Of a stretch of 64,000 nucleotides of DNA, positions 12,758 through 49,056 are shown one piece after another (the first letter of the stretch is position 1; each line of letters opens with the position of its first letter). Origin of the DNA: Candidatus Tepidifontimicrobium thermophilum (GTDB taxonomy: Bacteria; Sysuimicrobiota; Sysuimicrobiia; Sysuimicrobiales; Sysuimicrobiaceae); contig JAVKHO010000004.1 of assembly GCA_031459915.1 (NCBI GenBank), positions 96,001-160,000 on the forward strand, in the 5' to 3' direction. The notes below the pieces were generated by a model, which saw only the letters and a list, made by a program, of their open reading frames with translations, did not search any database and had not been told where the DNA came from. A program made the translations under genes and the position numbers.

Positions 12758-12773
12758 TTAAGCCCGCTTTAAG
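12758..12773 (+). promoter_or_regulatory. TTAAG-N6-TTAAG direct-repeat box 1
   Basis: TTAAGcccgctTTAAG upstream of the 12800 gene. Confidence 0.7.
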
Positions 12774-13448: not shown

Positions 13449-13926
13449 CTACGGCCCGGGCTGAAATTCGAGGAGTCGCTCCTCTTCTTTGTAGACTCCG
13501 TCAGTTTCGTCAGAGGACTCCTGATACCGCCCCAACACATAAGATCTGAGCCCGAAGAAGGGCTTGCGGCGAAGGGCCCACTCCTCCAGGACCGCGGTCC
13601 CGACCCACAGGGGGATAGTTGACAGCATCAGCGACGCCCAGAGCACCACGAACCATTCCGACGTGAACGCCGCGTCTGACCGTCCGAAACGTACCGACTC
13701 AACCAGGAACGCCACGGCGGCCGCAACCGCGCCGACCGGGATGAGCAGAAGCAAAAAATACACCGTATCCTGTTCGCTGATGCGCGCGGGGGAGATCCAC
13801 TCGCGCGACCCGGGCGATCCGCCTCCGCTCCTGCTCGGGGTCGCGCACGAGGGACAGCAGGTCCGCGAGCGCGGCGTCGATTCCACCGCGGAGCGATTCC
13901 CGGAGCCCGCGGGACCCCTCGCCCAC
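13449..13926 (-). pseudogene. Small membrane protein apparently split by a frameshift at a T6 tract
   Basis: Helical N-terminal frame (13926-13699) and a two-TM frame (ends 13449) join if one base of the A6 run at 13753-13758 is removed. Confidence 0.4.
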
Positions 13927-13936
13927 GGCCCCCCGT

Positions 13937-15049
13937 TCACCACGGCCTGTGGCGGAGCCGCTCCAGCAGCCGCTCGCCGGGAATCCCGCTTGCCAGGCCG
14001 GCCAGGTACGTCACCCGCAAGAGAGCCTGCAGATCCCCCACGGCCCTGTCGCGGACCCACCGGGCGTCCATGCGGCGCCAGGGGCTTGGTTCCAGAAAGT
14101 CCCTCCACGGAAGGAGTGCGAGTACGTACCCCTCCTGCACGGCCAGGAAAGGCTTCCAGGGAAGTTCGCGGGCGAGCTGCAGGAGGGCACTCCGGACCTC
14201 GAACCCGAGGGCACCGTGGACCCCAGCCGGCTCCGGTGCGTACACCTCGAACCGGCCGTCGAACTCCGGGTCCCCGGTGGGCACCGTGTCCCAGCGGTCG
14301 AGCCCCGACCGCAGCCCGGGTTCCCATTCGGCGAAACGCCCCAGCACCCCCGACCTCGGCAGGACCGCGAGCGGAACGAGATCCGGGCCACCCTCCGCGA
14401 CCGCCACCAGTCCGTAGAACTGGCGCCCGCTGCGCCCCGGCGGCCCGGGCTGCGTGAACCCCCTCCTTTTCGGGATCGCGGACAGGACATCCGCCTCGCC
14501 CGCGACCACGCGACGCGAGTCCAGCTGGAATTCCACGGCGAGCCGGACCGCAGGACGACGGCCTCCGACCAAGAGGTGGACCGTCTGCTGGAAGGGCTTG
14601 CCGAACCGTACGGGGTCGTTGCTCTCCGGCTCGGGCTGGAACGGAACGAATCCGAACGCCGGGCCCAGCGCACCGATCAGCTGGGACCGGATGCGGAGCG
14701 ACTGTCGGTCCCGCACGGGGGCGTAGAGGATCCAAGCCAGGACCAGGACCGGGACGTACAGAAAAGCGGGCACCAGCGGCGACGCGACGAGCCACAAGCC
14801 CAGGTACAGCACCGCGTCCAGGTCCGGCCGCACCCGGGACAGCACGAGCCCCAGCCCCGCGGTCAGCACCCCGACGCCCACCACCAGAGCCGCCAGCGCG
14901 AGCGGGACCAACGCCACCAAGGCAGGTAGCCGGAGCTTCCGACGCTCCGCCTCCAACCCGGAAAGCACCCCCTTCATGGCGGGCAGGACCGCTTCAATCC
15001 GTTCGGCCACCTCACGGTCGAGGGAGTCCAAAATCTGCGGAGGGGTCAC
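13937..15049 (-). CDS. Two-TM membrane protein, DUF3137-like
   Basis: Two hydrophobic helices, then a soluble domain with TGDPEFDGRFEVYA; GTGA overlap with the upstream gene. Confidence 0.65.
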   Translation of the reverse strand: MTPPQILDSLDREVAERIEAVLPAMKGVLSGLEAERRKLRLPALVALVPLALAALVVGVGVLTAGLGLVLSRVRPDLDAVLYLGLWLVASPLVPAFLYVPVLVLAWILYAPVRDRQSLRIRSQLIGALGPAFGFVPFQPEPESNDPVRFGKPFQQTVHLLVGGRRPAVRLAVEFQLDSRRVVAGEADVLSAIPKRRGFTQPGPPGRSGRQFYGLVAVAEGGPDLVPLAVLPRSGVLGRFAEWEPGLRSGLDRWDTVPTGDPEFDGRFEVYAPEPAGVHGALGFEVRSALLQLARELPWKPFLAVQEGYVLALLPWRDFLEPSPWRRMDARWVRDRAVGDLQALLRVTYLAGLASGIPGERLLERLRHRPW

Positions 15050-15594: not shown

Positions 15595-15596
15595 GG

Positions 15597-16799
15597 CTAA
15601 CCTCCTGGCCCGTCCTCGCGCATCTCCGCGGGGGCTCGCAGCCGGTCCCGCAGCCGCTGCCGGAGCTCCCGCAGGCGCGACCGGTACCGGTCCAGTTCCC
15701 GCGGGTCGCGGGTCCCCCCCGCGGCCCCGTGCTTGGCAAAGGCGAAGTCGACCGCCAGGTCGTAGTAGGCCCGCAGGTCCCGCCAGGCCCCCACGCCCCG
15801 ACGGGTGAGAGCCTCCCACAGGGCACGGAACCGGAGCGCGGGTGACAGCAGCGCCGGGAAATCCTCCTCTGCCACGACGTCGGTCTCCCCCGACAGCTGA
15901 GCCCGGACCAGGAAAGCCTCCCGTCTCCACGAGAGGTAAGCGATAACTCCGAGGGTGACCCAGGCAGGGGCCTCGAGGAGGCCCCACGTGAGCGGCAGCA
16001 CGACGAACAGGTCGACCCACACGTTCCCACGCGAAAGACGCGTGAGCCACGGGTCCAGGAAGGTGGCGGTGAAGTTCCAGGCGAAGTGCAGGAACACCGC
16101 ACACGCGAACCCTACCAGGGGAGCCGCGACCCTCCCCGCCGGACTTTTCGCCTCCCGCGCGTATCCCAGGCCGGCCCCCGTGCAGGCGGTGTAGGCGGAG
16201 TGGCCCAGCCCGCCGACCAGCGCCCGCGCGTAGAACGACACCGCCAGTCCCGGAAGCCCGCCTCTTTCCAGCGCCCGGAGGAAGTAGTGCACGTTCTCCA
16301 CCGCGGTGAATCCCAGGCCGGCCAGCGCTCCGTACACGACCCCGTCCAGGGTGTTGTTGAACTCGTGGCGCCACAGGAGGGCCACCAGGAGCACGGCGGC
16401 CCCCTTGGCGGTCTCCTCCGTCACCGGCGCCACGAAAGGCCCGACTAACTTTGCCCCCAGCTCCCGACCTAGAACAGCCTGAAGGATCGCGGAAGCCAGG
16501 GAGTTGGCGACGCCCGCACACAGGGTGGCCACCGCGGCACCCCAGAAGAAGGCCGCCAGGAGGAGCCACCCGGGTTCCCGCTCGTGTCGGTCCAGCCACA
16601 GGATCAGCAGGGCGTAGAACGGCACCACGGAAAACGCCGCCGCCGCGCTGAGGAGGAAGGAGGCGACGCTGTCCGCCCGACTGAGGCTCAGGGCGAGGTT
16701 GAGGGCACCCGCGACGACGATCGCACCCGCCAGAACCAGGGCGCCGGCCCAGCGCGCCAGCGGGAAAGCCTCCGGATACCGCAGCTCCTCTGCCGTCAT
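15597..16799 (-). CDS. PrsW-family glutamic intramembrane protease (copy 4)
   Basis: DRHEREP, EETAKG, GLGFTAVEN, GHSAYT, LHFAWN. Confidence 0.92.
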   Translation of the reverse strand: MTAEELRYPEAFPLARWAGALVLAGAIVVAGALNLALSLSRADSVASFLLSAAAAFSVVPFYALLILWLDRHEREPGWLLLAAFFWGAAVATLCAGVANSLASAILQAVLGRELGAKLVGPFVAPVTEETAKGAAVLLVALLWRHEFNNTLDGVVYGALAGLGFTAVENVHYFLRALERGGLPGLAVSFYARALVGGLGHSAYTACTGAGLGYAREAKSPAGRVAAPLVGFACAVFLHFAWNFTATFLDPWLTRLSRGNVWVDLFVVLPLTWGLLEAPAWVTLGVIAYLSWRREAFLVRAQLSGETDVVAEEDFPALLSPALRFRALWEALTRRGVGAWRDLRAYYDLAVDFAFAKHGAAGGTRDPRELDRYRSRLRELRQRLRDRLRAPAEMREDGPGG

Positions 16800-16806
16800 C
16801 TCCAGG

Positions 16807-17319
16807 TCAGCGGGACCGTGAATAGGAGGCGCGCATGCTGCGAAACACCCCGAGGAGTCCGGAGAACTCGGACTCAGCGGCCTCGCCCGACAGGAAAGTC
16901 ACCTCCGTGACGCCACCGGTTCCGGGAGAGGACCGGATCCAGAACACCATGCGGGTACGAGAAGGGCCCGTACCCCAGCGGGACTCCCCTCCCACGGCCC
17001 ACGGGTGTCCGCCCAGCTCCCACCGAAACCCCGGGCGCCGGTCCAGCCCCAGCAGGTCGCCCAACACACGGCGCGCTGCCTCGCGCGGCCGCAGGCGGCC
17101 CTGCACGGGAAGATCCGGAAGCACCACAAAGCGAGGCGGGCGGAACGGCCCGCGGGCGTGGAAGATCACAAGCCCCAGGTCCTCCGCCCGGTGCACCCTC
17201 CAGGAAGCGGGCCGGAGGATCCGGAATCCCCACTCCGGATCCACGTAAGGCTTCAGGGCTACGACCTGCGACGCGAAGCCGACGAGAAGAAGGGTCGACA
17301 CCAGGCCCGCGTGGATCAC
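16807..17319 (-). CDS. Exported protein with putative PsbP/Mog1-like domain
   Basis: Signal-like N-terminus, YVDPEWGFRILRPASW, C-terminal VFRSMRASY; GTGA overlap with a PrsW stop. Confidence 0.6.
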   Translation of the reverse strand: MIHAGLVSTLLLVGFASQVVALKPYVDPEWGFRILRPASWRVHRAEDLGLVIFHARGPFRPPRFVVLPDLPVQGRLRPREAARRVLGDLLGLDRRPGFRWELGGHPWAVGGESRWGTGPSRTRMVFWIRSSPGTGGVTEVTFLSGEAAESEFSGLLGVFRSMRASYSRSR

Positions 17320-18455
17320 GTCCAGGCAATCCCGAGTGACTCCAGACGCGCCCGGAGCTGGACAAGCTGTCCCCTGAGCTGGTCCTCGGAGGCCCCTGCC
17401 GGCCTCCCCCGGGAGGCCCGCCACCGCGCGAAGGCGAGCTCTGCCAGCGTGTCGTAGAACTGGCGGAGAACCAGCCACCCAGCGGGTCCCTTCCGCGTGA
17501 AAGCCTCCCAGAGCCGGCGGGACTTGACCCCACTTGTGGCCACCGCCCGCAGCTCTTCCTCCGTGAGGATTCCCGAGGAGACCAGGTCCACCAGGTGTGT
17601 GCGGATCAGCTCCCGTTCCCGCCGCTCCGCGAGGAAGGCCAGGAGCCCGAGCACGACGAGGGGCGGGAGCAGGATGATCCCGAACAGCACCGGGATCAGA
17701 AACAACTCTCTTTCTCCAACCGCGGCAACGACCGCGAGGTTGCTGGAGTTCCACAGGGCGTGCAGGAAAACCGCCCCGAGATACCCGACCGGTGGGGCTA
17801 CGAACCGGGCCGCTCCCCCGCGCTCGCGCGCGTAGCCCAGGGCAGCCCCCGTGCATCCCGTCCAGACGGAGTGCATGAGGCCTAGGAGGATCACGCGCAG
17901 GAAGAACAGGACGATGAGCGTCCCCAGCCCACCCTCCGTATAGCCACGGCCCAGGTACAGCACGTTCTCCGCCACCCCGAAGCCCAGCCCCACCAGCGCC
18001 CCATACACCAGGCCGTCCGTGAGGTTGTCGAACTCCTCGCGGAGGAAGGCCGCCATGCCGAGGAGTGCCACTCCCTTCGCGGTTTCCTCCACCAGGGGTG
18101 CCACGAGTCCGAGGGTGACCCGGAGCGCCCACTGGGGCCCCAAGACTGCCTTCAGGACAGCCATCCACAGCTGGTTGAAGACAAAGGCGAGCAGCACGGA
18201 CACCGTGGAGCCCCAGAAAAAGGCAGCCAGCAGCAGCCAGCCCGGCTCCTTCTCGTGCCGGTCCAGCCACAGGATGGCGGTGACGTACACAGGCACGGGG
18301 AGCACAGCCAGACCGGCACCGAGCAAGAACGCGACCGGCCCCTCGAGGCCCACGAGGATCAAAAGCACCAACAGCCCCACGAAGCTGAACAGGCCCAGCA
18401 GCGACAGCTGCAGGAACAGGTAGGGGTTCCTCGCCCGGACCGACCCGACCGGCAC
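17316..18455 (-). CDS. PrsW-family glutamic intramembrane protease (copy 3)
   Basis: DRHEKEP, EETAKG, GLGFGVAEN, MHSVWT, LHALWN; GGGAGG before GTG 18455. Confidence 0.9.
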   Translation of the reverse strand: MPVGSVRARNPYLFLQLSLLGLFSFVGLLVLLILVGLEGPVAFLLGAGLAVLPVPVYVTAILWLDRHEKEPGWLLLAAFFWGSTVSVLLAFVFNQLWMAVLKAVLGPQWALRVTLGLVAPLVEETAKGVALLGMAAFLREEFDNLTDGLVYGALVGLGFGVAENVLYLGRGYTEGGLGTLIVLFFLRVILLGLMHSVWTGCTGAALGYARERGGAARFVAPPVGYLGAVFLHALWNSSNLAVVAAVGERELFLIPVLFGIILLPPLVVLGLLAFLAERRERELIRTHLVDLVSSGILTEEELRAVATSGVKSRRLWEAFTRKGPAGWLVLRQFYDTLAELAFARWRASRGRPAGASEDQLRGQLVQLRARLESLGIAWT

Positions 18456-18460
18456 GGCCG

Positions 18461-19021
18461 CTAGCCTCCCATCCACTTGAAGTCCCGCAACATCTCCGTC
18501 AGGGTGCGTTCCCACCGCGGCCACTCCCGCTCCGGCGCCTGGGCCAGGACCAGGTAAAAGACCAGGGTGTCCCCACCGTGCACCGGCGGCCTGGCCACGA
18601 CGGTCAAGAACACCGCCCGCATGGGGATGTCGGCCGCACCCCTCCAGGTCACCTCTCCCCGGACGGTGTAGATCCCCTGACCTTGCGGCGTGATCCGCTG
18701 CCGCAGGCGGACGTCCGCCGACCGGCCGAGTCCCGCTTCGCGCATCAACGTCTCCCGGACCGCCACCTCCGGTTCGAGGTCTCCGCTCAGGCGCGTGCCG
18801 GGGAATACCACGAACGCCGTCCCCTCCCGCGGACGGTCTCGGTAGAAAGCCACCCAGCCGTCCACCGGGTCCTCCTGGATATGCCAGCCGCGGGGATAGC
18901 GAACCGAGAAACGAGCAGAGGGGTCCACGTACACGACCCAATCACTGGAGAAGGGCAGCCCCAGAGCGAGGCTCAGGAAAACCCCCAGCGCACTAACCCC
19001 TCTCTTTCCGGCTACCGGCAC
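18461..19021 (-). CDS. Exported protein with putative PsbP/Mog1-like domain
   Basis: Hydrophobic N-terminus, YVDPSARFSVRYPRGW, C-terminal LTEMLRDF. Confidence 0.65.
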   Translation of the reverse strand: MPVAGKRGVSALGVFLSLALGLPFSSDWVVYVDPSARFSVRYPRGWHIQEDPVDGWVAFYRDRPREGTAFVVFPGTRLSGDLEPEVAVRETLMREAGLGRSADVRLRQRITPQGQGIYTVRGEVTWRGAADIPMRAVFLTVVARPPVHGGDTLVFYLVLAQAPEREWPRWERTLTEMLRDFKWMGG

Positions 19022-19842
19022 AGGGCCTCCTCCCTGGGACGTCCCTCAGTCGGCTTCTGAGGGAGGAAAGCGTGGCTGCGCGCCATGTGCTGGAACACGG
19101 GGACCAAGCTCGGCCACGCCACCCGCTGTGCCTGAAACGCTTTGAAGTGCTTCATCGAGAAGTTGGCCACGCGCGAGTGCAGGTACACACCCAGCAGAAC
19201 CCCGTGCATGGGCTCACCACGACCGTTGGTCCAGGAGGCCTCCAGGAAGGCGGACTCGCTGTCCTGGGGCATGGGCCGGATCTGCAGCGTCTCTACCCGC
19301 AAGTCCGGGTACTGTCTGCGCATGCGCCCCACCAACCCGTCGAGATCCTGTTGGGCGGGCACCACCCGGCCGTACGTCGCCAGCATCCGCGAGAAGGACG
19401 CAGAGCTACCGTCTGACGAATCCTCACCGGGCGGCGTGAAACTCACCCCCGACTCCCCCGGCAACACCCGCCAGCCCGAGGGGTACTGGACGCAGAACTC
19501 CCCGCCCGGGTCGAGGTACCACGAGTAAGAAACCTGAGGCGGCGGGCCCGCAGGCTGGCCGCCGGCAGGTGAGGGCCCCGAAGGCGAAGACGGCCACGGC
19601 TGCCCGGCGGGAAACGAGGGCTGCGGTCCGGGGCGTGCTGGCGTCGCGGGACGCGCAGGCTGCGGGGCCGGCTCCTGGCCGGGCTGCAGAGCGGGAGGGG
19701 GCGGAGCCGGACGCCGGGCGAGCACGTACCACGCCACCCCTCCGATCCCCAGCATCACGAAGAACCCCACCGCCAGGACAGCCAGGATGGCCACCACGGC
19801 CCACGGACTTAGCCCAGCCTGATCGGTGAGTGTCCTCCTCAT
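19012..19842 (-). CDS. Membrane-anchored protein with Pro-rich linker and putative PsbP/Mog1-like domain
   Basis: N-terminal TM, long P/A/Q linker, YLDPGGEFCVQYPSGW, VFQHMARSH; ATGA overlap with a PrsW stop. Confidence 0.7.
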   Translation of the reverse strand: MRRTLTDQAGLSPWAVVAILAVLAVGFFVMLGIGGVAWYVLARRPAPPPPALQPGQEPAPQPARPATPARPGPQPSFPAGQPWPSSPSGPSPAGGQPAGPPPQVSYSWYLDPGGEFCVQYPSGWRVLPGESGVSFTPPGEDSSDGSSASFSRMLATYGRVVPAQQDLDGLVGRMRRQYPDLRVETLQIRPMPQDSESAFLEASWTNGRGEPMHGVLLGVYLHSRVANFSMKHFKAFQAQRVAWPSLVPVFQHMARSHAFLPQKPTEGRPREEALCR

Positions 19843-21002
19843 CCCACAAGCCCCAACGCGGCGGCCCGTTCGCGGAGCGCCTGCACCCGTTCGCGGAGCA
19901 CCTGGACATCGCGTCCGGCTTCCCCGCGCCGTTGCCGCCAGAGGGCGAAGGCCAGGTCCACCTCGGCGTCGTACAGCTGCCGCAGCAGGTTCCACGCGCC
20001 CGGCCCCTTTGCGGTCAACACCGACCACAGGCGGCGGCTCCGCTCCCGCGGCCGCGTGAGGAGCTCCACGTGTTCCGGCAGCATCCTGCCTGCCTCCACC
20101 TCCTCTTGCAGGCCCTCTCGGATGGCGGTCACCTCCCGCTTCCAGGCGAAGTACGCCAGGGCCACCAGCAAGAGCAGCGGGATCCCTGCGATGAAGAAGG
20201 ACATCAACGGAACAACCAGGAGCCCCGCGGCACCCGCAGACCGGACCGCGGCCGGAACCGCAAAGCTCGCCAACAGGTTCCAGAGGAAGTGCAGGAACAT
20301 GGCGCAGAAGTAGCCCGCCACCGGAGCCACGAAGCGTGCCGCTCCCTGGCTCTCCCGGGCGTACCCCAGACCCGCTCCCGTGCAGGCGGTGTAGACGGAA
20401 TGGTTCAGGCCGCCCACCACTGCCCGCAACACGAAACCCACAGTCAGGGCCGCGATGCCTCCCTCGCGGAGGAAGCGGGCGAAGTACAGGATGTTCTCCG
20501 TGGCCGCAAAGCCCAGCCCGGCCAGGGCCCCGTACACGATGCCGTCCACGGTGTTCGTGAACTCGCGCCGCCAGAACAGGAAAACGAGCAGAACCGCAAG
20601 CCCCTTGCTGGTCTCCTCCGTCAGGGGGGCCAGCAGGGGCCCGGTCAGCTGTTTGCCCAGCTGAGGGCCGAACACGAGCTGGAAGACCTCCCCGCCGAGG
20701 GAGTTGAAGATCAAGCTGAAGAAGGTGGCCACCACCCCACCCCAAAGTAGGGCTCCGAGCAGCAGCCCCCCCGGCTCCTTCTCGTGCCGGTCCAGCAGGA
20801 GGATCAGGCCCGCGTAAAAGGGCACCACGGACAGCGCGGCGAAACACGCCATGAGGAACCGGCCCAGTCCTCCTGCGGATTGGTAGAAGAGGAGCATCTG
20901 CAGCAGGGCCAGCACGAACAGCACCAGCCCTCCCGCCACAAGCCCCGCAGCCTTCAGGAAGGTGTCCGTGCCGAAGCCTGACCGCGCAGTGCCGGCTGCC
21001 AT
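19839..21002 (-). CDS. PrsW-family glutamic intramembrane protease (copy 2)
   Basis: DRHEKEP, EETSKG, GLGFAATEN, NHSVYT, LHFLWN. Confidence 0.92.
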   Translation of the reverse strand: MAAGTARSGFGTDTFLKAAGLVAGGLVLFVLALLQMLLFYQSAGGLGRFLMACFAALSVVPFYAGLILLLDRHEKEPGGLLLGALLWGGVVATFFSLIFNSLGGEVFQLVFGPQLGKQLTGPLLAPLTEETSKGLAVLLVFLFWRREFTNTVDGIVYGALAGLGFAATENILYFARFLREGGIAALTVGFVLRAVVGGLNHSVYTACTGAGLGYARESQGAARFVAPVAGYFCAMFLHFLWNLLASFAVPAAVRSAGAAGLLVVPLMSFFIAGIPLLLLVALAYFAWKREVTAIREGLQEEVEAGRMLPEHVELLTRPRERSRRLWSVLTAKGPGAWNLLRQLYDAEVDLAFALWRQRRGEAGRDVQVLRERVQALRERAAALGLVG

Positions 21003-21011
21003 ACTGTGCTC

Positions 21012-21662
21012 CTACTGCAGGGCGAACGGCACCAGCAGCACGACCGCAGGTTGACCGCCCTGAGGGACTGCCAAGACAAACCCGTATAGCCCAGACGAGC
21101 CCCCTTGCGTGTCCAGGGTGTAAAGGGTGCGTCCTGGCTTTTCCACAGGCTGCGGGTTGGTGACGGGGACCACCCGTTCCTGGGACTCGATCTTTACCAC
21201 CAGCGTGACCACCTGAGTTTCCATCCGGCGGACGCCAAAGAGGATCCCCACGGGCTCACCCACCCGGAAGGTCCCGGCTGGCTCCGTGGGCTTTCCGTCC
21301 GGCCCAAGACGCACGGCCATCCCGCCCTCCACCTCCACCCCTGGGACCTGCTGGGGGCAGATGCCCTTACCGAGGTCCTCGGGGCCCCTGGGAGGTGTCT
21401 GGGGGCAGGGACCCGCCTGCGGGCCCGGTGCTGAAGGCTGGGCCGGCGTCGATGGCTGGGCCGGCGCAGGGGCCGGGGGCGCAGGCTGGGACACCGGGCC
21501 CGTGGGTTGAGACCCGGGCTGTGCAGGGGCGGCCGCAGGGGTCGGCGCGGGGGAAGGTTTCGGCCTCGCGAAGACCACCAGCGCGGCCACGACCGCCACC
21601 ACCGCGAGCAGGGTGAGACACCCGCAGCCCAGTCCACCGCCGATCAGCAGGTTCCGGTTCAT
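21012..21662 (-). CDS. Single-pass GCGC-motif membrane protein with Pro-rich linker (paralogue A)
   Basis: MNRNLLIGGGLGCGCLTL+TM, P/A/Q linker, C...PEDLGKGICPQQVPG, ends VLLVPFALQ; ATGA overlap. Confidence 0.75.
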   Translation of the reverse strand: MNRNLLIGGGLGCGCLTLLAVVAVVAALVVFARPKPSPAPTPAAAPAQPGSQPTGPVSQPAPPAPAPAQPSTPAQPSAPGPQAGPCPQTPPRGPEDLGKGICPQQVPGVEVEGGMAVRLGPDGKPTEPAGTFRVGEPVGILFGVRRMETQVVTLVVKIESQERVVPVTNPQPVEKPGRTLYTLDTQGGSSGLYGFVLAVPQGGQPAVVLLVPFALQ

Positions 21663-22708
21663 CGTCCGACCTCCCGGATCCGGTCGCGATACACCTGCAG
21701 CTCCGCTTCGCTGGCGAGCCCGCGCTCCAGCCGGCGCCGGGCGAAGGCCAGCTCCGCGAGGGACTGGCGCGCGGCCTTCGGGACCGTACCCCACCGGCCC
21801 CGCGCGGCCGCTTCCGCGTACTCCTCGGGGATGTGGCCTTCCCGCGCCTCCACAGGCAGGTAGCGGGCTAGGACGTTACGTTCGTGGCGCAGAGCCCAGG
21901 CCACGATGACCACCAACGCGGCAACCCCTGCCCAGTCGGCCACCGTCCGCACGGCCGCCAGCAACCCGGAAGGGCCCGTTCCGGACCCGATCAGGGCGGC
22001 GAGGGCGTCGTAGGCGGCGTGGTACAGGGCCGCCACCGCGAACCCGCCCACCGGCAGCCACCACGCCGCCGAGCCCGTCAGCCTGAACTCCCGCACCGCG
22101 CCCAGGGAGGCGCCGAAGAGGGCGCCGAAAGCGCTGTGGGTGAGGCCGGTGAGGAGGATGCCGAAGAACATCCCCGCGCTGATGCCGCCTCCCAGTCCGG
22201 ATTTCGAGAGGTCCCACAGGTACACCGCGGACTCCGCCAGGGCGAACCCCGCCCCGACGATCCCTCCGTATACGACCCCGTCCAGGGTCCCGTCGAACTC
22301 GCGGGGAAGGGACCGGAAGAGGGCCAGGATCACCAGGGCCTTCATGCCCTCCTCCACCACCGCGCCGGCAGGGTTGGGTCCGAAGAGCGCGGCGTTCAGG
22401 GCGTGGAAGCTCGCCGGGTAGACGGACATCCGGATCCCCGTCAGGCGCTCCACGATCACGGTCAGCACGGGCGCCGCCACCGCCCCTCCCAGCAGTGCCG
22501 CAGCCAGCACGCTGGCGGGCTCCTTCTCGTGCCGGTCCGCCCAGTAGAGGACGGCCACGTACAGGGCCGTGAGCACCACCACGATGAGGACGCCCAGCAG
22601 GACCCCGCTCCCCCCGGCTTCGAGCGCGCCGGTGAACTCCGGCGCGGGCGACTTCTCGATGGGGAACGGGAAAAAAGGACGGGGCGGGACGGTAAGAAGC
22701 AACTCCAT
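21659..22708 (-). CDS. PrsW-family glutamic intramembrane protease (copy 1)
   Basis: DRHEKEP, EEGMKA, GAGFALAES, THSAF, YHAAYD; GAGGAGG RBS before ATG 22708. Confidence 0.88.
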   Translation of the reverse strand: MELLLTVPPRPFFPFPIEKSPAPEFTGALEAGGSGVLLGVLIVVVLTALYVAVLYWADRHEKEPASVLAAALLGGAVAAPVLTVIVERLTGIRMSVYPASFHALNAALFGPNPAGAVVEEGMKALVILALFRSLPREFDGTLDGVVYGGIVGAGFALAESAVYLWDLSKSGLGGGISAGMFFGILLTGLTHSAFGALFGASLGAVREFRLTGSAAWWLPVGGFAVAALYHAAYDALAALIGSGTGPSGLLAAVRTVADWAGVAALVVIVAWALRHERNVLARYLPVEAREGHIPEEYAEAAARGRWGTVPKAARQSLAELAFARRRLERGLASEAELQVYRDRIREVGR

Positions 22709-22769
22709 GGCGACCCTCCTCACCTCTGACCGCGTGCGTGTGTGTTCCGCAACACAGCCCCCGCTGGCT

Positions 22770-23147
22770 CTAACGCGCCCCTTCCCCCGGGGGCCTTAAC
22801 CAGGGTCCCTTCCCCTGCAGGAAGGCGTAGGTGTTGACCGCCGCCGCGGCGAACCACGCGAGAAAGCCCAGGAAGTTCCAGCCAAGCCCTCCCAGGGTCA
22901 CCACTCCCGCTAACGTCCGGTTCCCTGTGGCACCCGCGATCAGCATGAACAGCAGGGGCAGGAAGCCGAACACCACCGACAGGCCGACGCCCCAGCCGAG
23001 GGCCCAGGCTGCGTGGCGCCGCACAAGCGGGTGTGGCGGCTTGAGGAAGAACCCCGCGATGGCGATCCACCACAGCCACCACCCCCCGATGGCCACCAGG
23101 CGCTGAACCTGCGTGACCTCCGTACCGTGCTGGCTTTCTAGCGACAT
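22770..23147 (-). CDS. Small membrane protein, DUF4870-like
   Basis: Three hydrophobic segments; LVRRHAAWAL motif; GGAGG RBS; first gene of the PrsW operon. Confidence 0.6.
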   Translation of the reverse strand: MSLESQHGTEVTQVQRLVAIGGWWLWWIAIAGFFLKPPHPLVRRHAAWALGWGVGLSVVFGFLPLLFMLIAGATGNRTLAGVVTLGGLGWNFLGFLAWFAAAAVNTYAFLQGKGPWLRPPGEGAR

Positions 23148-23216
23148 CAGTACCCTCCGGCAACCGGCTCGAAGCCCGGAACGCGGGCCCCCAAGGCCGG
23201 ACGTAACCAGGAGGGA

Positions 23217-23232
23217 CTTAAAACCCGCTTAA
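23217..23232 (-). promoter_or_regulatory. TTAAG-N6-TTAAG direct-repeat box 2
   Basis: Minus strand TTAAGcgggttTTAAG about 70 nt upstream of the PrsW operon; overlaps the regulator's TAA stop. Confidence 0.7.
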
Positions 23233-25949
23233 CGCCGGCGGCGGTCTAGCAGGGCGGGACGGAGATAGTCCTGGACGAGCGCCCGGGTCTCTGGCAGGGG
23301 AGCCACGCCGACCTCCTCCCGAAGGCGCTCCTCGAAGTCCCGATAGAAGCGCAGGACGGCCTGCCGGTGGCCCAGGCTCAGGAGGTGTCGCAGGAGGGCT
23401 TGCAGGGCGGGTTCGTGGGTGGGGTCCAGCTCGAGGACCCGCTCCAAGTAAGCGATGCCCTCCTCCGGAGCCGCGTCGCGGCCCGCCTGGTACAGACAGT
23501 GCACTACCCGCCGTTGCAGGGCGTACCGGACTTCGTCCACCGCCGGGAGGTCCACCCCCGGTGCCAGCGGCTCTCGGTACAGCCTCAGAACGGACTTCGC
23601 GTCCTCCTGCTGCAGGGCCGCTTCCAGATCCCAGAAGTCCACCCGGGTGTTCCGCAGCGCGTTCCCCGCCAAGTACGTGGGGACCCGCCAGGGCTGCAAG
23701 GCCCTGCGGAGGTGGTGCAGCTGCACGTGGAGGTTGTTGCGGGCCTGGTCGGCGTCCGCGTCCGGCCACAGCTGGCCCGCTACTTCCTCCAGCTCCCGAC
23801 CCATGACCAGGAGCACCAGCAGGGCCCGGGCCGTGGGCGACAGCGACAGCTCCTCCCCGACACGTGTCAACCGGAAGCGTCCCAGGATCTCCACCACCAG
23901 AGGCGGGACTTCGTCCAACCTCCGCTCGACCGCCTCTTTCCAACCGGCCCGCAGCACCGCCTCGATGGGGTAGGCGTCTGCCAGCTCAGGGCGGTGCGGG
24001 GGAAGCTCTGAGACCGACAACAGGGCCGGCAGGATCCGGGAGCCCAGGGAAGTCAGCCCGCACAGCGCCTCCAGATCCTCTTCGCGTCTCAGGATCCGGT
24101 AGCGGGCCGCGTGGTAATAGGCACGCTCCTCCCGGTCGTAGGGAGGGGAGGGCAGTGAGGCGACGGCTTCGTCCCCTCTTCCGAGGTGCCAGAGGCTGAG
24201 GGCCAACTCCAGCTGGCTCCAGAAACCCCGCGCGGGCCGGACGACCTGGGCGGCCTCGTCTACACAACCCGTCTCTCGCAGGGTCCGGGCCCAGAGCCCC
24301 CGCACCGCGTCCTCAAGCTCCGGGTTCTCTGACGTTTCGGCAAGGGTGACCAGCCGCTCGAAAGGCTCGCATTTCCGCTCCAGGCAGGCCTGCCAGGCGG
24401 CCGCCAGGGCCTCGGCCCAGAAGTTCCGCCCCGGCTGGGCCTGGGCGGTGCGGAAACAGGTCAGCGCCTCTTCCCGTCGGCCTGCCAGCAGCAGGAGGCG
24501 GCCGGTCTGCAGGAGGGTGAGCGGGAGGTTGTGGGAGCGTTCCCGCTCCTGAGCTTCCGCGGTGCGGCGGTTGTACGCCAGATAGTAGTCCAGGTCGCCC
24601 TGTTGCTGCCAGCGGAGGAACGCCAGGTTGTACCCGATGGGGTGGAACACGTAGGGGTCGTCCGCCGGAAGGAGACTGCGGGCTTCCTCCAGGACCGCCT
24701 GGAACCGCTCCAGCTGGCGGGCCTTCCACAACGGCCAGCAGGTCCAGTTCAGGAACCGAGCGGCCGAGTGCGGATCCACACGGGGCACGAGCCTGTACCC
24801 CTCGTCCACCGCCCGCAGCGCAAGCTCCAGGTCCACCTCAGGGGCGTTGTAGGCGATCAACCCCCAGGCCCGGATCGCCACCTCCGGGTCCAGGCGGTCC
24901 GCTTCCCGGGCGAGCCGCTCCAGGCGGTGGAATGCCTCCCCGAGCCGACCCGTCAGGCAGAGGGCCATTCCGTAGCCCAGCCTCCGCCAGGGTCCCCCCA
25001 TCCCCGGCAGGGCTCGACACCACCTGACCAGGGAAGACGGGACGGTGGAAGCGAGATCCAGGGCCGCGGGAGATTCCAGGAGCGCCTCCAGTTCCCTCCA
25101 CAGGGCCGCCCGCAGGTAGGCCTCCGCCCGCAGTTCGAGGGGCAGGTCGGCAGCCCGCCGGCGCACCGACTCCTGGATCTCGGTCCACGCGCAGGCGTGC
25201 AGCACCTCGGTAAACAGGGCGTGGAGGCGGAACCCCTGGGCAGTCCGCTGAACGAACCCCGAGGCCTGGAGCCGCCGCAGGGGACCCTCCGCCAGCTCCT
25301 CCGGGAGGGCCGGCACAGCCGACAGAAGCAACAAAACCTCCCACTCCTGCTGCCCTAAAGACTCGCGCACCCCCTGCGCGAGCGCACTCTGCAGGTCCAA
25401 GGTGCCCGTCAGGGCGGCCACGTGGACGGCGATGGGCCAGCCTCCCGTACGCTCCCAGATCTCGTACGCTCTGGCTCCGTCTGCCAACAGCTGCTGGACC
25501 TCCGCCAGACGGAAGCGGAGGTCGTCTGCGGTCAGGTGAACCAGCCGCCCCGCGGTCCTCGCGCGGGGGAGCTCCGGCCACCTGAGCTCACCGCGGCTGG
25601 CCAGGCCCAGCAGTAGGTTTTCCGAGGGGAGCCGGAGGGAAAGGAGGGTATCCGGGGTCAGGTCGTCCAGCACCAGCACCGTGGGGCTTTCCGTCAGCAC
25701 GCACTGCAACAGCGCCCACGAGGGGAGCCCCGGAAGGCCCAACATCCGTCCCAGCTGTTCGAGGAGGGATCCGGTCGCGGCGTCGGCCCACAACACCCGC
25801 CACCCGTGGGCGCGAAGCCTGTCCGTCCACTGCTGGAGCAGGACGGTCTTGCCGTAGCCGTAGGGGGCCTGCAGCCACACCACATACCCGCCCCGCGTCG
25901 GGAGGGCTTCCAGCAGGCGCGGCCGCAAGACCCAGGTTGCGTGCTCCAT
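23229..25949 (-). CDS. Large ATP-dependent transcriptional regulator: MalT-like NTPase, helical/TPR region, SARP-type winged helix plus BTAD
   Basis: RPRLL...APYGYGKT, VLVLDD, DLRF, TGGWP; C-terminal LGRFRL...LWPD...NNLHVQLHHLRRAL...LELDPTHE...GVAPLPET. Confidence 0.85.
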   Translation of the reverse strand: MEHATWVLRPRLLEALPTRGGYVVWLQAPYGYGKTVLLQQWTDRLRAHGWRVLWADAATGSLLEQLGRMLGLPGLPSWALLQCVLTESPTVLVLDDLTPDTLLSLRLPSENLLLGLASRGELRWPELPRARTAGRLVHLTADDLRFRLAEVQQLLADGARAYEIWERTGGWPIAVHVAALTGTLDLQSALAQGVRESLGQQEWEVLLLLSAVPALPEELAEGPLRRLQASGFVQRTAQGFRLHALFTEVLHACAWTEIQESVRRRAADLPLELRAEAYLRAALWRELEALLESPAALDLASTVPSSLVRWCRALPGMGGPWRRLGYGMALCLTGRLGEAFHRLERLAREADRLDPEVAIRAWGLIAYNAPEVDLELALRAVDEGYRLVPRVDPHSAARFLNWTCWPLWKARQLERFQAVLEEARSLLPADDPYVFHPIGYNLAFLRWQQQGDLDYYLAYNRRTAEAQERERSHNLPLTLLQTGRLLLLAGRREEALTCFRTAQAQPGRNFWAEALAAAWQACLERKCEPFERLVTLAETSENPELEDAVRGLWARTLRETGCVDEAAQVVRPARGFWSQLELALSLWHLGRGDEAVASLPSPPYDREERAYYHAARYRILRREEDLEALCGLTSLGSRILPALLSVSELPPHRPELADAYPIEAVLRAGWKEAVERRLDEVPPLVVEILGRFRLTRVGEELSLSPTARALLVLLVMGRELEEVAGQLWPDADADQARNNLHVQLHHLRRALQPWRVPTYLAGNALRNTRVDFWDLEAALQQEDAKSVLRLYREPLAPGVDLPAVDEVRYALQRRVVHCLYQAGRDAAPEEGIAYLERVLELDPTHEPALQALLRHLLSLGHRQAVLRFYRDFEERLREEVGVAPLPETRALVQDYLRPALLDRRRR

Positions 25950-25992
25950 AAGGTGCAGCGTCTATCCTCGCGCCGCCGCTCGTTTCGCGCGT

Positions 25993-26008
25993 TTAATGCG
26001 ATTTTAAG
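25993..26008 (+). promoter_or_regulatory. TTAA-N7-TTAAG direct-repeat box 3 in the divergent promoter region
   Basis: TTAATgcgattTTAAG between the regulator (25949, -) and the PrsW-like gene (26047, +). Confidence 0.65.
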
Positions 26009-26046
26009 CCGGCCTGTCACCACTGTGGAACCGGAGGGCAACAGGA

Positions 26047-26970
26047 TTGCCAGCTCCCGCATGGATCCTCAACCTGTGCGTCCTGGTGTACGCTTTCCTG
26101 TTGTGGTGGCCGGTGCGCCACGAACACCGGTTGCCTGCCCTTTGGGCCCTCCTGGCGGCCGGCGGCGCGGTGGGCGCCATTCAGCGAGCCCTCCTGGGGA
26201 TCCTGTTCCCTGAGTCCGCCGGGTCCTGGCCTCCGTTTGCCGCCGCGTGGGTGGGGGCACCGGTGGCTGCCTGGCGCGGGGGCGTGGAAGAGCTGTCCAA
26301 AGCCGTGGTGGTTCTCGCGATCCGGGCACGGGCCGGCCGGTGGTTCGAGGACGCGCTCCACGGGGTGGTGGCAGGGAGCCTCGTGGGGCTCGGATACGCG
26401 CTAGCCGGCGTGGGACTGGCAGCGTTCAGGGACGCGATGCTGCCGGACGACCCCGGGAGGCTGGTGCACCTGCTCGGAGGTTGCCTGGCGCAGGGAGTCT
26501 ACCCTGCCCTGCTGGGCGCCGCACTGGGATGGACTCCGGCCGACCGCGGCAAGCGGGCGCGTGTCCTCCGGGCGCTGGGCGGAGTCCTGGGCGCGGCGGC
26601 GGGCCACGCTCTGTACCTGGGGTTGGCCCAGGCCTTCCGGCCTGGGCAGGAGCCCTCGGGGATGGCGGTCGCCGGCCTTCTGGCCTTGGAGTGGGGCGGG
26701 GCCGCGGTGCTTGTGGTTGTGTGGGTCTGGGGTGCACGCCGACAGCGGGCGCTGCTGGCCAGCTATCTATGGGGAGAGGTCGCCCTGGGGACCCTCACTG
26801 ACGACGAGTTCCATGCGGTGATCCGCGATGGGAGCCGGCTTGGGGGACCCCTGAGGTCGGCGCTCGTGCAGCTCGCCCTCGCCAAGCGAAGGCTCGTGCG
26901 GGGGGAGGGCCGAGAAGAGGAGGTCCAGGCTTGGCGGGATCGCGTGGCGGCGTTGCGGCGCAGGCGTTGA
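26047..26970 (+). CDS. Degenerate PrsW-like membrane protein (copy 5)
   Basis: EELSKA, HGVVAGSLVGLGYA and the shared C-terminal tail are present; FxxxE glutamate and first His motif are absent. Confidence 0.75.
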   Translation: MPAPAWILNLCVLVYAFLLWWPVRHEHRLPALWALLAAGGAVGAIQRALLGILFPESAGSWPPFAAAWVGAPVAAWRGGVEELSKAVVVLAIRARAGRWFEDALHGVVAGSLVGLGYALAGVGLAAFRDAMLPDDPGRLVHLLGGCLAQGVYPALLGAALGWTPADRGKRARVLRALGGVLGAAAGHALYLGLAQAFRPGQEPSGMAVAGLLALEWGGAAVLVVVWVWGARRQRALLASYLWGEVALGTLTDDEFHAVIRDGSRLGGPLRSALVQLALAKRRLVRGEGREEEVQAWRDRVAALRRRR

Positions 26971-28805
26971 GAGCCCTCCGGAGGGTCAGCGCACGCGGGG
27001 TGCAGGCGCTGGACGCCGTGGGCCAGCACCTCGGGGTGCCCGTCAAGTGGAAAGACCTCCGGCAGGCGGCAGAAGGCCTCCTGGGCCTTCTTCGGCTGGG
27101 TCCCTGGGGCGCCCTGGCCCTGGCCCTTTTCCTGGCGACCCTGGCCGGGTTCGCGGCGGTGCTACGGGAGCCTCCCGCGCAGCGGGCTCAGCCGCTGGGG
27201 ACGCCCGCCGGCCTCGCGTTGCTCGGCTGCATCGCCGCTGTCTCGTTCTCTCTTCTCCTGTCCGGGATCCGCTCCGCCCATCCCTCGGTCCGCTTCGTGG
27301 CCGGACTGTACGGCCTCTGGTATCTCCTCCTGCCCCCGGTGCTGGCTCTCCCTCGGTGGGTGGCGCTCCTGCCCGCCTGGGCTCTGTACGCGGTCGAAGC
27401 AGCCCGCCTGGCGGCCGACCGGAAAACACCCCTCTGGCTGATCCCCTGGGCTCTGCTGCTGGGACGTCTCAGCCCACCGCTGACGCGGCAGGTGTGGGCT
27501 TCCGTGACGGCCTGGGCCCTTCTGTACTTGGCGGTCGGCACCATTCTCTTCCGGACGGTACGTCGCCCTCCTCCGGAGCGTACGGTGCTGTTCTGGAGCA
27601 TGGCGGGAGTCTACGCCTGGGGTATTCTCCAGAGCCCCGGTCGGTTCGGCGAAGCCCTGCACATGGGCTACTCGGCCCTGTTCACCTTCCTCGGGCTGTT
27701 CTGGATGTGGCTGGCCGCGGACCTGGTGGACGACGCCTCGGAGCTCGCCGAGCGGGCGGTGGGCCGGCTGCGGAGGCTGCTGGGAGGCCGGTGGGGACGC
27801 TACGGGGTCAGCGGGGCTCTGGCGCTTGTGGGAGGCACATCCCTGTTGGCGGCCCTGCTGCCGCGGGTCGTACTGGAGGCCCTGCCGCTACCCGTCCTCC
27901 GGCTGGTGGCGAGGTTCCTCCAGAGCGCCTGGACGGACGGGCTGGCGGTGTGCGGTGCTTTGATGGTGTTCACGGGGGCCGCGACATGGCTGCGGGGGAC
28001 CCGGGATCCCGCGGACGCAGCCGCGGACGGCCTGGCCTCCGGAGTCGTCCTCGTTCTCGTCTACTGGGCCGGGACACAGGCGTGGGCCGGGCTGTCGGAA
28101 GTGGAGGAGCCGTCGGGCTGGTGGCCGCTCGTGCTGGCGTCGGCGCCCGTGCTGCTGGAGGAGTTCAAACAGACGGCCAAGGGGGTGAGGGAAGGCCCTG
28201 CGGCTGCAGCCCTGATGGTGGTGGCGGTGGCCCTCCTGGGGATCGCTGCCACCGCGTTCCAGTTCGTCTCGGACCCGCGCGAGGCTGTGCGGGACACCAC
28301 CCTCTACCCCTTTCTCGGAATGGTGCTGTGGGGGCTTCCACACCTCCTGGTCAGGCTGGTGGCTGGGTGGAACGCGCAGGTCCAGTCGGTTCGCCTGTTC
28401 CTGGTGGGCTACTCCTCGGCCCTGCCGGCGGCCCTCGTCTTCCCGGACCTCCGGAGCGGAGCACCGGCGCTGGCGGTGCTCCTGTGGCCGCTGGCCCTGC
28501 GCGTCAGTGGCCGGCCACGGGGTGACTCCCTCGGCCTGCGCGCGGCTTCCGGGATCTTGCTGGCGAGCGGGACGCTGGCGTTTTTCTACGAGCCCCTGCC
28601 CGTGCCGGTACCCTTCGCTCCTTGGACCGATGCGCTCATCCGGAGGCTTGGGGCAGTGCAGGCTACCGAGTGGCTGAGCTGGGCCCAGCTGGTGGCCTGG
28701 TTGGGAGCCGCCCTGGCCGGAGCGGCCTTCGCGGTCCTCGGCCGCGCGGGCTGGGCCGGTGCGGCGCTGCTGTGGGCCCTGTGGAACCGGCTCTTTCTCC
28801 GCTGA
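26967..28805 (+). CDS. Large polytopic membrane protein of unknown function
   Basis: Long, almost wholly hydrophobic ORF; TTGA overlap with the upstream stop; start uncertain. Confidence 0.7.
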   Translation: MRALRRVSARGVQALDAVGQHLGVPVKWKDLRQAAEGLLGLLRLGPWGALALALFLATLAGFAAVLREPPAQRAQPLGTPAGLALLGCIAAVSFSLLLSGIRSAHPSVRFVAGLYGLWYLLLPPVLALPRWVALLPAWALYAVEAARLAADRKTPLWLIPWALLLGRLSPPLTRQVWASVTAWALLYLAVGTILFRTVRRPPPERTVLFWSMAGVYAWGILQSPGRFGEALHMGYSALFTFLGLFWMWLAADLVDDASELAERAVGRLRRLLGGRWGRYGVSGALALVGGTSLLAALLPRVVLEALPLPVLRLVARFLQSAWTDGLAVCGALMVFTGAATWLRGTRDPADAAADGLASGVVLVLVYWAGTQAWAGLSEVEEPSGWWPLVLASAPVLLEEFKQTAKGVREGPAAAALMVVAVALLGIAATAFQFVSDPREAVRDTTLYPFLGMVLWGLPHLLVRLVAGWNAQVQSVRLFLVGYSSALPAALVFPDLRSGAPALAVLLWPLALRVSGRPRGDSLGLRAASGILLASGTLAFFYEPLPVPVPFAPWTDALIRRLGAVQATEWLSWAQLVAWLGAALAGAAFAVLGRAGWAGAALLWALWNRLFLR

Positions 28806-49032: not shown

Positions 49033-49056
49033 ACCGTGTACGGGGAGGTCTGAGGG

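What the first reader, a model, noticed from the sequence alone, without database searches (positions are those of the whole stretch)
13449..28805. Array of five PrsW-family intramembrane proteases interleaved with two families of exported partner proteins
Seen: a tightly coupled minus-strand operon (many ATGA/GTGA overlaps) reading DUF4870-like, PrsW1, GCGC-A, PrsW2, PsbP-like x2, PrsW3, PsbP-like, PrsW4, GCGC-B, DUF3137-like. A fifth PrsW and a large membrane protein lie divergently beyond a large regulator. Each intact PrsW is followed directly by a small anchored or exported protein. Known: Bacillus PrsW is a site-1 protease for the anti-sigma RsiW and is usually single copy. No ECF sigma or anti-sigma is visible here. 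Inference: a modular protease plus substrate/adaptor system for shedding, sensing or envelope defence. I do not recognise it as a described system.
Basis: partly seen in the sequence, partly recalled or inferred. Interest (0 to 1): 0.85.

Follow-up and report, generated by a model that had tools for sequence, protein, structure and literature searches.

The report
Switch-controlled array of five membrane proteases
A bacterium carries five related membrane-protease genes interleaved with small membrane-anchored partner genes, plus a DNA box repeated before four gene sets; a neighbouring regulator likely switches them on together and the proteases are predicted to clip the partners off the cell surface, a layout we found in no paper searched.

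Summary
The array is real. Five PrsW-family genes, the only ones in the genome, lie in one locus. PrsW1-4 keep all catalytic motifs; PrsW5 is a degenerate, fast-evolving offshoot of the PrsW1 lineage. The array recurs in 5 of 11 family relatives, and a PrsW1-partner-PrsW2 core in other families of the phylum and one Gemmatimonadota MAG. A Gly-Cys-helix-Pro-rich partner directly follows PrsW1 in 11 of 11 genomes where visible, and is near none of 59 solitary PrsWs. Thermoflexus-like loci join an independently duplicated PrsW pair to such a partner, the same regulator type and the large membrane protein. New here: a TTAAG-N6-TTAAG box (11-bp period) precedes four transcription units, widening the system to about 12.7-30.5 kb (adds a secreted protein and a flavin amine oxidase); the local STAND-wHTH-BTAD protein is the likely activator, though pst promoters carry a similar box. 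Likely mechanism, untested: sigma-independent, inducible shedding of partner ectodomains. Strict one-to-one pairing fails for PrsW4; the DUF4870 label is unconfirmed. No paper found; this scan noted a related locus before (e1-9925836).

The parts
12758..12773 (+). Operator box TTAAG-N6-TTAAG before the secreted 190-aa gene
   Evidence: conserved in L001-L005
12788..13360 (+). Secreted all-beta 190-aa protein, homologous to the ectodomain of the Gly-Cys-anchored partner of Thermoflexus-like loci
   Evidence: (E 3e-7, pairwise); AF2 model poor, no fold match (117, 122); not found in 5 relatives that lack the array (81)
13449..13940 (-). Broken remnant of a second DUF3137-like membrane protein
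   Evidence: two frames match a 282-aa relative weakly; a near-identical strain has indels here
13937..15049 (-). DUF3137-like two-helix membrane protein, 370 aa
15046..15594 (-). GCGC-B: Gly-Cys-Gly-Cys, one helix, short linker, Ig-like domain with a Cys pair
15597..16799 (-). PrsW4, all four catalytic motifs
16807..17319 (-). PsbP-like exported protein 3
   Evidence: family-level match
17316..18455 (-). PrsW3, all four catalytic motifs
18461..19021 (-). PsbP-like exported protein 2
   Evidence: PF01789 E 1.7e-5
19012..19842 (-). PsbP-like protein 1: one helix, Pro-rich stalk, PsbP-like domain
   Evidence: (homologue L012 matches PsbP at E 8e-4)
19839..21002 (-). PrsW2, all four catalytic motifs
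21012..21662 (-). GCGC-A: Gly-Cys-Gly-Cys, one helix, Pro-rich stalk (17% Pro), Ig-like domain
   Evidence: (Atlas model, TM about 0.6 to DUF2914 and MG-type domains)
21659..22708 (-). PrsW1, divergent subtype; motifs intact here (HxxxD), motif 4 eroded in orthologues outside this family
22770..23147 (-). Three-helix membrane protein, first gene of the operon (DUF4870 label unconfirmed)
23217..23232 (-). Operator box before the main operon, overlapping the regulator's stop codon
23229..25949 (-). 906-aa regulator: STAND-type NTPase, TPRs, OmpR-type wHTH, BTAD; the only BTAD protein of the genome
25993..26008 (+). Operator box before PrsW5 and the large membrane protein
26047..26970 (+). PrsW5, degenerate (motif-2 Glu, motif-3 His and motif-4 Asn/Asp lost); likely non-catalytic
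26931..28805 (+). 624-aa polytopic membrane protein of an unnamed family, no known fold matched
28811..30397 (-). Flavin amine oxidase (LAAO/MAO family) with a twin-arginine-like motif at residues 44-49
30474..30489 (-). Operator box before the amine oxidase

Best explanation
The locus holds four intact PrsW-family membrane proteases, one degenerate copy and their membrane-anchored partners behind a shared DNA box, and is likely an inducible, sigma-independent envelope module in which the local STAND-wHTH-BTAD protein would switch the genes on and the proteases would clip the partners' outside domains free. Steps. (1) Shown: genes, motifs, conservation, and the TTAAG-N6-TTAAG box before four transcription units. 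(2) Inferred, about 0.75: the 906-aa regulator binds these boxes in the manner of SARP activators after sensing an unknown ligand through its NTPase-TPR part. (3) Inferred from charge pattern and from B. subtilis PrsW, about 0.7: the catalytic sites face outward. (4) Inferred, about 0.5: the partners sit N-terminus-in; GCGC-A (with PrsW1/PrsW2) and PsbP-like-1 (with PrsW2) are cut in or next to the Pro-rich stalk, releasing the Ig-like and PsbP-like domains; the Gly-Cys motif at the inner end of the helix is the recognition or lipidation tag that dedicates the partner to its protease. (5) Inferred, about 0.5: PrsW5, and in other lineages the first PrsW copy, act as non-catalytic subunits that hold partners or the 624-aa membrane protein. 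The purpose is probably display and release of surface proteins during an envelope or competition response, together with the exported oxidase; the trigger is unknown.
For: Catalytic core EE-K-E-H-H-N/D intact in all 21 PrsW1-4 sequences of this family that were aligned; motifs EExxK, HxxxD and the TM5 His as defined in passages of PMC4602095. Orthologue identity 68-78% for PrsW1-4 against 39% for PrsW5. Gly-Cys-helix partner directly after PrsW1 in 11 of 11 genomes where visible, before the first PrsW in 6 of 6 Thermoflexus-like loci that show a PrsW, and in 0 of 59 solitary-PrsW loci with the same filter. Only 2 such proteins in the genome, both here; the GCGCL[TS]L pattern gives 15 matches in 94 genomes, 12 in these loci and 3 not in a matching gene. 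Paired Cys in the ectodomains fit an outside location. Box: 5 in 2.6 Mb against 0.014 expected per spacing, 4 of the 5 here; second half-site TTAAG in 29 of 31 oriented sites at these loci against 2 of 19 at pst and copper-island sites; lineages with another regulator have another 11-bp-period repeat at the same place; 11-bp direct repeats over the -35 region are the SARP signature (passages of PMC4393881). The box-predicted member at 12788 is homologous to the partner ectodomain in Thermoflexus-like loci, an independent link.
Against: No cleavage, binding or induction was shown. Partner topology is ambiguous by charge (1-2 basic residues before and 0-2 after the helix). Two PsbP-like proteins look like plain signal-peptide proteins that need no PrsW for release. 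PrsW1, the copy with the tightest partner, has lost the motif-4 Asn/Asp in 6 of 6 orthologues outside this family and one has also lost the motif-3 His, so it may not cut at all. PrsW4 has no fixed partner. The same TTAA-N7-TTAA spacing marks pst operons and copper islands in relatives without the array, the fifth genome site is in the pst operon, and at least 5 OmpR-type regulators exist in the genome. The filter used for the 0-of-59 control was written from the positives, and the site sets were hand-picked.
Confidence: 0.45

Rival explanations
1. The partners are sensors or adaptors, not substrates: each PrsW-partner pair detects something outside and cuts another target, such as an anti-sigma factor encoded elsewhere or an incoming peptide.
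For: B. subtilis PrsW cuts an anti-sigma factor (passages of PMC4602095); 10 sigma-70 region-2 proteins lie elsewhere in the genome; PsbP/MOG1-like proteins were proposed as adaptors in type VI loci (passage of PMC3482391); two PsbP-like partners lack a stalk.
Against: No sigma gene in any homologous locus read; the locus has its own activator-type regulator and box; ectodomains are exchangeable (Ig-like here, another beta domain in Thermoflexus-like loci) while the Gly-Cys-helix-Pro part is kept, which fits a processing tag better than a fixed adaptor.
Confidence: 0.25
2. Myxosortase-like sorting: PrsW recognises the (lipidated) Gly-Cys motif itself and cuts next to it, making this an N-terminal counterpart of MYXO-CTERM processing.
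For: MYXO-CTERM is a GCGC motif abutting a helix and followed by basic residues (passages of bioRxiv 10.1101/2023.06.07.544157) and MrtX cleavage needs those cysteines (abstract and discussion of PMC11980579); PrsW shares the catalytic core with type II CAAX proteases; Gly-Cys is invariant in 14 of 14 partners aligned.
Against: The motif is N-terminal; with an N-in anchor it lies on the side opposite the inferred active site; only 2 carriers per genome, not dozens; the proteases match PF13367 and no other protease family in the scan.
Confidence: 0.12
3. The proteins assemble into a mainly structural membrane complex (active and dead PrsW copies, the 624-aa protein and anchored partners) in which proteolysis is secondary.
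For: A degenerate PrsW accompanies the intact one in three lineages, from three separate origins in the tree (PrsW5; short QE/QQ type; Thermoflexus-like copy a); APH-1 of gamma-secretase belongs to the same superfamily (passage of PMC4602095; its non-catalytic role is recalled).
Against: All catalytic residues of PrsW2-4 are invariant across 15 sequences, which argues for selected activity.
Confidence: 0.1
4. The array is a lineage-specific tandem expansion in a plastic island; neighbours are passengers and no pairing is functional.
For: PrsW2/3/4 form one clade and are still 65-68% alike at DNA level; the 3' end is reshuffled and decaying; not found in 3 near-complete relatives.
Against: Each paralogue has its own orthologous clade across two genera; the PrsW1-partner link survives across families and a rearrangement; the same gene set recurs in another phylum with independently duplicated PrsWs.
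Confidence: 0.08
5. On regulation only: the boxes are read by a PhoB- or CopR-like response regulator, so the locus belongs to a phosphate or metal stress regulon.
For: Same TTAA-N7-TTAA spacing at pstS/pstC in 6 genomes and in copper islands; AfsR and PhoP share sites in Streptomyces (passages of PMC4415409).
Against: Oriented half-sites differ (TTAAG against TTAAC); the repeat sequence changes with the local regulator in other lineages; two near-complete relatives without the array have no site at all.
Confidence: 0.2

Closest known systems
Bacillus subtilis PrsW (YpdC) - RsiW - sigma W regulated intramembrane proteolysis
   Same: Pfam PF13367 family, same catalytic motifs, single-pass membrane proteins as likely substrates
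   Different: Far below the NCBIfam PrsW equivalog cut-off (43-50 against 225 bits); longer type with a charged C-terminal helical extension; five copies; no sigma or anti-sigma gene in the locus; controlled by its own STAND-BTAD regulator
Myxosortase MrtX and MYXO-CTERM (bioRxiv 10.1101/2023.06.07.544157; PMC11980579)
   Same: Glutamic intramembrane protease superfamily; candidate substrates share a short Gly-Cys(-Gly-Cys) motif abutting a helix on otherwise different proteins; enzyme and target genes adjacent
   Different: Motif is N-terminal, two carriers per genome, PrsW family instead of CPBP, inducible locus instead of housekeeping
PrsW-dependent polymorphic toxin systems (PMC3482391)
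   Same: PrsW domain proposed to process and release an exported domain
   Different: No toxin domain fused to any PrsW here; released domains would come from separate genes; no immunity cassette recognised
SARP/AfsR-type activators
   Same: OmpR-type wHTH plus BTAD, NTPase and TPR parts; direct repeats with 11-bp period before target genes; possible overlap with Pho boxes
   Different: wHTH-BTAD is C-terminal in this protein; targets are envelope genes, not a biosynthetic cluster
Earlier scan finding e1-9925836 (triple PrsW, Pro-rich protein, trypsin operon)
   Same: By its note: activator, PrsW relatives, anchored partners, one degenerate PrsW; loci with that layout were read here (L012, L028)
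   Different: This locus has four intact long PrsWs, no trypsin, a different degenerate copy, and a defined operator with four units

Membership tests
PrsW family (PF13367) | Pfam match above the curated cut-off | tested here: met
   5 of 5 proteins, 36-162 bits against 23.5
PrsW family (PF13367) | Catalytic motifs EExxK, FxxxE, His, HxxxN/D in PrsW1-4 | tested here: met
   EExxK, HxxxD and the His; the FxxxE label is recalled
PrsW family (PF13367) | Catalytic motifs in PrsW5 | tested here: not met
   6 of 6 PrsW5 sequences lack the motif-2 Glu and motif-4 Asn/Asp; 4 of 6 lack the motif-3 His
PrsW family (PF13367) | Proteolytic activity | not testable with these tools
   needs a cleavage assay
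B. subtilis PrsW-RsiW-sigma W system | Orthology to PrsW (NCBIfam equivalog NF033739) | tested here: not met
   43-50 bits against cut-off 225
B. subtilis PrsW-RsiW-sigma W system | Cognate ECF sigma and anti-sigma pair | tested here: inconclusive
   none on this contig; 10 sigma-70 region-2 matches elsewhere could be served in trans; anti-sigma families not searched
Myxosortase / MYXO-CTERM | Gly-Cys motif directly followed by a hydrophobic helix | tested here: met
Myxosortase / MYXO-CTERM | Signal at the C-terminus with an Arg cluster | tested here: not met
   motif lies at residues 12-15 of 216 and of 182
Myxosortase / MYXO-CTERM | Many carriers per genome | tested here: not met
   2 in the genome with the filter used
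Myxosortase / MYXO-CTERM | Cys-dependent cleavage and lipidation | not testable with these tools
   needs experiment
PrsW-dependent polymorphic toxin system | Variable toxin domain fused C-terminal to PrsW | tested here: not met
   C-terminal parts are a conserved extension of about 100 aa without a toxin match
SARP/AfsR-type activator | OmpR-type wHTH next to BTAD | tested here: met
   BTAD above cut-off; wHTH weak in the window (E 0.048), above cut-off in orthologue L002
SARP/AfsR-type activator | Direct repeats with 11-bp period before target genes | tested here: met
   criterion
SARP/AfsR-type activator | Binding of this protein to these repeats | not testable with these tools
   needs EMSA or reporter
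DUF4870 | Pfam PF09685 match of the first ORF | tested here: inconclusive
   no match in 5 members; weak profile match

The most novel reading that the evidence does not exclude
PrsW proteases have a second, sigma-independent job as dedicated sorting or shedding enzymes: an active PrsW paired with a degenerate copy recognises an N-terminal Gly-Cys-helix tag on exchangeable surface proteins and processes them, in an inducible envelope apparatus that also needs a new 620-aa membrane protein family, and this pairing arose at least twice.
Probability: 0.25. Interest if true: 0.82.

Novelty: new variant of a known kind. Interest (0 to 1): 0.6.

Why it matters
The papers read here give PrsW one tested substrate, an anti-sigma factor. 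This locus offers co-encoded candidate substrates, active and dead paralogues as built-in controls, a candidate recognition tag and a predicted operator, so what PrsW proteases cut besides anti-sigma factors becomes testable in E. coli or B. subtilis. If the Gly-Cys tag is read by PrsW, it would extend the myxosortase principle to N-terminal signals and to a second protease family. It also defines a regulon and an unnamed membrane protein family in an uncultured lineage.

Tried and rejected
Co-folding of PrsW1 (36-349) with GCGC-A (1-44): no answer, score 0.00, partner fold uncertain; neither for nor against. Fold of the 624-aa protein: confident model (pLDDT 81.5) but no Foldseek match at E 0.001 and best VIA Z 8.8 over 83 residues, ordinary for helical bundles; Atlas hits all under 0.9; domains were not folded separately. 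Fold of the secreted 190-aa protein: pLDDT 55, no match. The 628-aa membrane protein of family-f5 loci as a homologue of the 624-aa protein: weak only (hhalign E 0.0045, probability 8%; not found by the profile). The 624-aa family in Chloroflexota: 0 of 401 sampled genomes (no positive control), so its link to Thermoflexus rests on named proteins and metagenome contigs. RNA: one run's contigs cover the locus evenly and may be DNA, one run has 286 reads mostly on groEL, two have 4 and 0 reads; no test of expression. Idea that every TTAA-N7-TTAA cluster marks a BTAD regulator: rejected, four clusters read were copper/redox or similar islands without one. Genome-wide housekeeping sorting signal: rejected. 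Sigma-70 consensus scan uninformative. Polymorphic toxin reading rejected (no toxin fusion). Literature searches without a description of such an operon: PrsW+intramembrane+gene cluster (15), PrsW+sorting signal (20), PrsW+PsbP (47), PrsW+EExxK (70), PrsW+paralogs+catalytic+RsiW (115), PrsW+tandem+operon (123); open-access library only, listings seen, supplements not read (the additional file of PMC3482391 may list related PrsW neighbourhoods).

Full report
Setting. The window is contig C28 of a 2.6-Mb, 96% complete, about 70% GC genome. Sources label its relatives Armatimonadota; the phylum search returned 94 genomes of one order, which fits the GTDB group CSP1-3 (name recalled).

Observation. 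The minus strand reads regulator (23229-25949), three-helix protein, PrsW1, GCGC-A, PrsW2, PsbP-like 1 and 2, PrsW3, PsbP-like 3, PrsW4, GCGC-B, DUF3137-like and a remnant; PrsW5 and a 624-aa membrane protein run on the plus strand. Junctions are tight. The five PF13367 matches are the only ones in the genome. PrsW1-4 keep EExxK, FxxxE, the His and HxxxN/D; PrsW5 keeps only EExxK and the motif-4 His. PsbP is confirmed at family level, DUF3137 in relatives, DUF4870 not. GCGC-A is a single helix preceded by Gly-Cys-Gly-Cys, a Pro-rich stalk and a domain that the Atlas model places with Ig-like DUF2914 and MG domains at TM about 0.6; this is a lead from predicted models.

Conservation. Of 11 family relatives, 5 have the array (3-5 Pfam matches in one locus), 1 has regulator, PrsW5 and the start of the large protein on a short contig, 1 has regulator fragments only, and it was not found in the other 4, three of them 94-100% complete. 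The 5' part is fixed; the 3' end (PrsW4, GCGC-B, DUF3137-like genes) is reshuffled. Four genomes of another family and a Gemmatimonadota MAG hold a PrsW1 and a PrsW2-type gene with a Gly-Cys partner; a sixth genome has both types 2.7 kb apart on a short contig. The family-f5 loci add, variably, a short degenerate PrsW, a PsbP-like gene, a trypsin-like protease and a 628-aa membrane protein, the layout noted earlier in this scan as e1-9925836. The 59 other loci from the genome scan (mostly Chloroflexota) have one PrsW with unrelated neighbours, and 301 genomes of that class have at most 3 matches each.

History. In a 73-sequence tree PrsW2/3/4 form one clade with the type-2 genes of the other family, each paralogue with its own orthologous group; PrsW5 falls inside the PrsW1 clade (99/95) on long branches (long branches can mislead, and no one-clade test was run). 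Orthologue identity is 68-78% for PrsW1-4 and 39% for PrsW5. PrsW1 orthologues outside this family have lost the motif-4 Asn/Asp in 6 of 6.

A second phylum. The 624-aa protein defines a small family (15 clusters at 50% identity among 1.84 billion) with members named Thermoflexus and Anaerolineae. Its model is confident but matches no known fold. Of 9 metagenome loci with distant members, 7 were read for genes: five near-identical ones, about 70% identical to the Thermoflexus protein, read STAND-BTAD regulator, Gly-Gly-Gly-Cys-helix-Pro partner, PrsW a, PrsW b, with the large protein converging; L099 reads large protein, partner, PrsW a; L102 is short and shows no PrsW. That PrsW pair is a separate duplication within the Chloroflexota lineage (100/100), and copy a is eroded. 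These count as two or three lineages, not six.

The partner tag. A Gly-Cys-helix-Pro protein follows PrsW1 in 11 of 11 genomes where the next gene is visible and precedes copy a in the Thermoflexus-like loci, with a different ectodomain. The same filter finds none in 59 solitary loci and only the two locus proteins in this genome. The DNA pattern for GCGCL[TS]L gives 15 matches in 10 of 94 genomes; 12 are in these loci, and the 3 others were read and are not such genes; the reversed control pattern gives a similar number of scattered matches, so the three are chance level. The filter was written from the positives. The tag resembles MYXO-CTERM (passages; abstract and discussion part 1) but is N-terminal. 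Charge does not settle topology; Cys pairs in the ectodomains favour N-in.

The operator. TTAA-N7-TTAA occurs 5 times in the genome against 0.014 expected; the nine other spacings from 3 to 12 give 1 match together. Four sites lie here, before the main operon, PrsW5, the oxidase and the secreted 190-aa gene, and are kept in relatives. The regulator is the genome's only BTAD protein and has an OmpR-type wHTH. Against a simple reading, the fifth site is in the pst operon, and this spacing also marks pst operons and copper islands in relatives, as it does CtrA promoters (notes). Read in the direction of the target gene, the second half-site is TTAAG in 29 of 31 sites (30 from 7 array loci plus one before a related secreted gene; near-duplicate metagenome loci and L008, whose site ends in C, were left out) and in 2 of 19 comparison sites (8 pst sites and 11 of the 20 island sites). 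Family-f5 loci carry a GGAACG-type and Thermoflexus-like loci a TGTTCAC-type repeat with the same 11-bp period after their own regulators; none was found in L006, and L011 was not scanned for repeats. This fits SARP-type activation (passages of PMC4393881), with Pho cross-talk as a precedent (passages of PMC4415409). The secreted gene, predicted as a member by its box, proved homologous to the Thermoflexus-like partner ectodomain and was not found in five relatives without the array (no positive control in that call).

Mechanism. Shown: genes, motifs, conservation, tag, box. Inferred: the regulator activates four units; the proteases face outward like B. subtilis PrsW (site-1 role from passages of PMC4602095 and PMC9263693); they shed the stalked partners; dead copies act as subunits. 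I put this at 0.45, adaptor or sensor roles at 0.25, myxosortase-like cutting at the Cys motif at 0.12, a structural complex at 0.10 and passive expansion at 0.08. RNA data gave no test.

Comparison. It works like regulated site-1 proteolysis but is not a member of the sigma W system (equivalog cut-off missed; no sigma in the locus), nor a myxosortase system, nor a PrsW toxin system (passages of PMC3482391). Six literature searches on PrsW listed no paper on a multi-PrsW operon; only listings were seen for most, and subscription papers and supplements were not covered.

Verdict. A real, conserved, apparently undescribed regulon built on an unusual PrsW expansion, with a testable tag and operator, narrow in distribution and without functional proof: new variant of a known kind, interest 0.6.

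Noticed in passing
G000:C14:29008 (L111:7009) and L116, L117, L118, L122, L125: TTAAC-N6-TTAAC boxes before pstC or pstS: a likely Pho box of this lineage.
   Followed up: partly
L112, L113, L114, L115: Copper/redox-type islands (YHS-like, cupredoxin-like, heavy-metal ATPase, molybdopterin oxidoreductase; labels by eye) with 3-6 TTAA-N7-TTAA boxes each, two of them with an OmpR-type two-component pair inside.
   Followed up: partly
L009, L010, L015, L017, L020, L021, L022, L024: A second conserved PrsW context in this phylum: short intact PrsW beside DUF350, DUF3592, a 90-aa coiled protein, a 170-aa exported family, vWA proteins, often a STAND-BTAD regulator and sometimes flavin amine oxidases.
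   Followed up: partly
L007, L012, L016, L018, L019, L023, L028: Short PrsW with degenerate motifs (QE/QQ/ET for EE) followed by or fused to a PsbP-like domain and then a trypsin-like protease.
   Followed up: partly
L032-L035, L038, L040, L043-L045, L056, L061, L063, L065: Chloroflexota proteins of about 780 aa with a long exported N-terminal domain fused to a PrsW; in the three aligned the motif-2 Glu is lost.
   Followed up: no
L104:7898-8917: One Thermoflexus-like locus has an extra Cys-x-Cys-helix protein with a PsbP-like-looking domain and an acidic tail between the large membrane protein and the PrsW pair.
   Followed up: no
L004:945-2465 and L124:2204-3778: A secreted 506-524-aa protein without Pfam match sits behind the same TTAAG box in two relatives, once inside and once outside the array: a further likely regulon member.
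   Followed up: partly
window 1680-4171: OmpR-family response regulator and PAS histidine kinase (PhoB/PhoR-like), a candidate reader of the pst box.
   Followed up: partly
window 47476-51440: ORFs that look like type IV pilus or type II secretion genes (retraction ATPase and platform protein; labels by eye).
   Followed up: no
L011:10017-11420: Two tandem Gly-Cys partner genes after PrsW1 in one genome.
   Followed up: no
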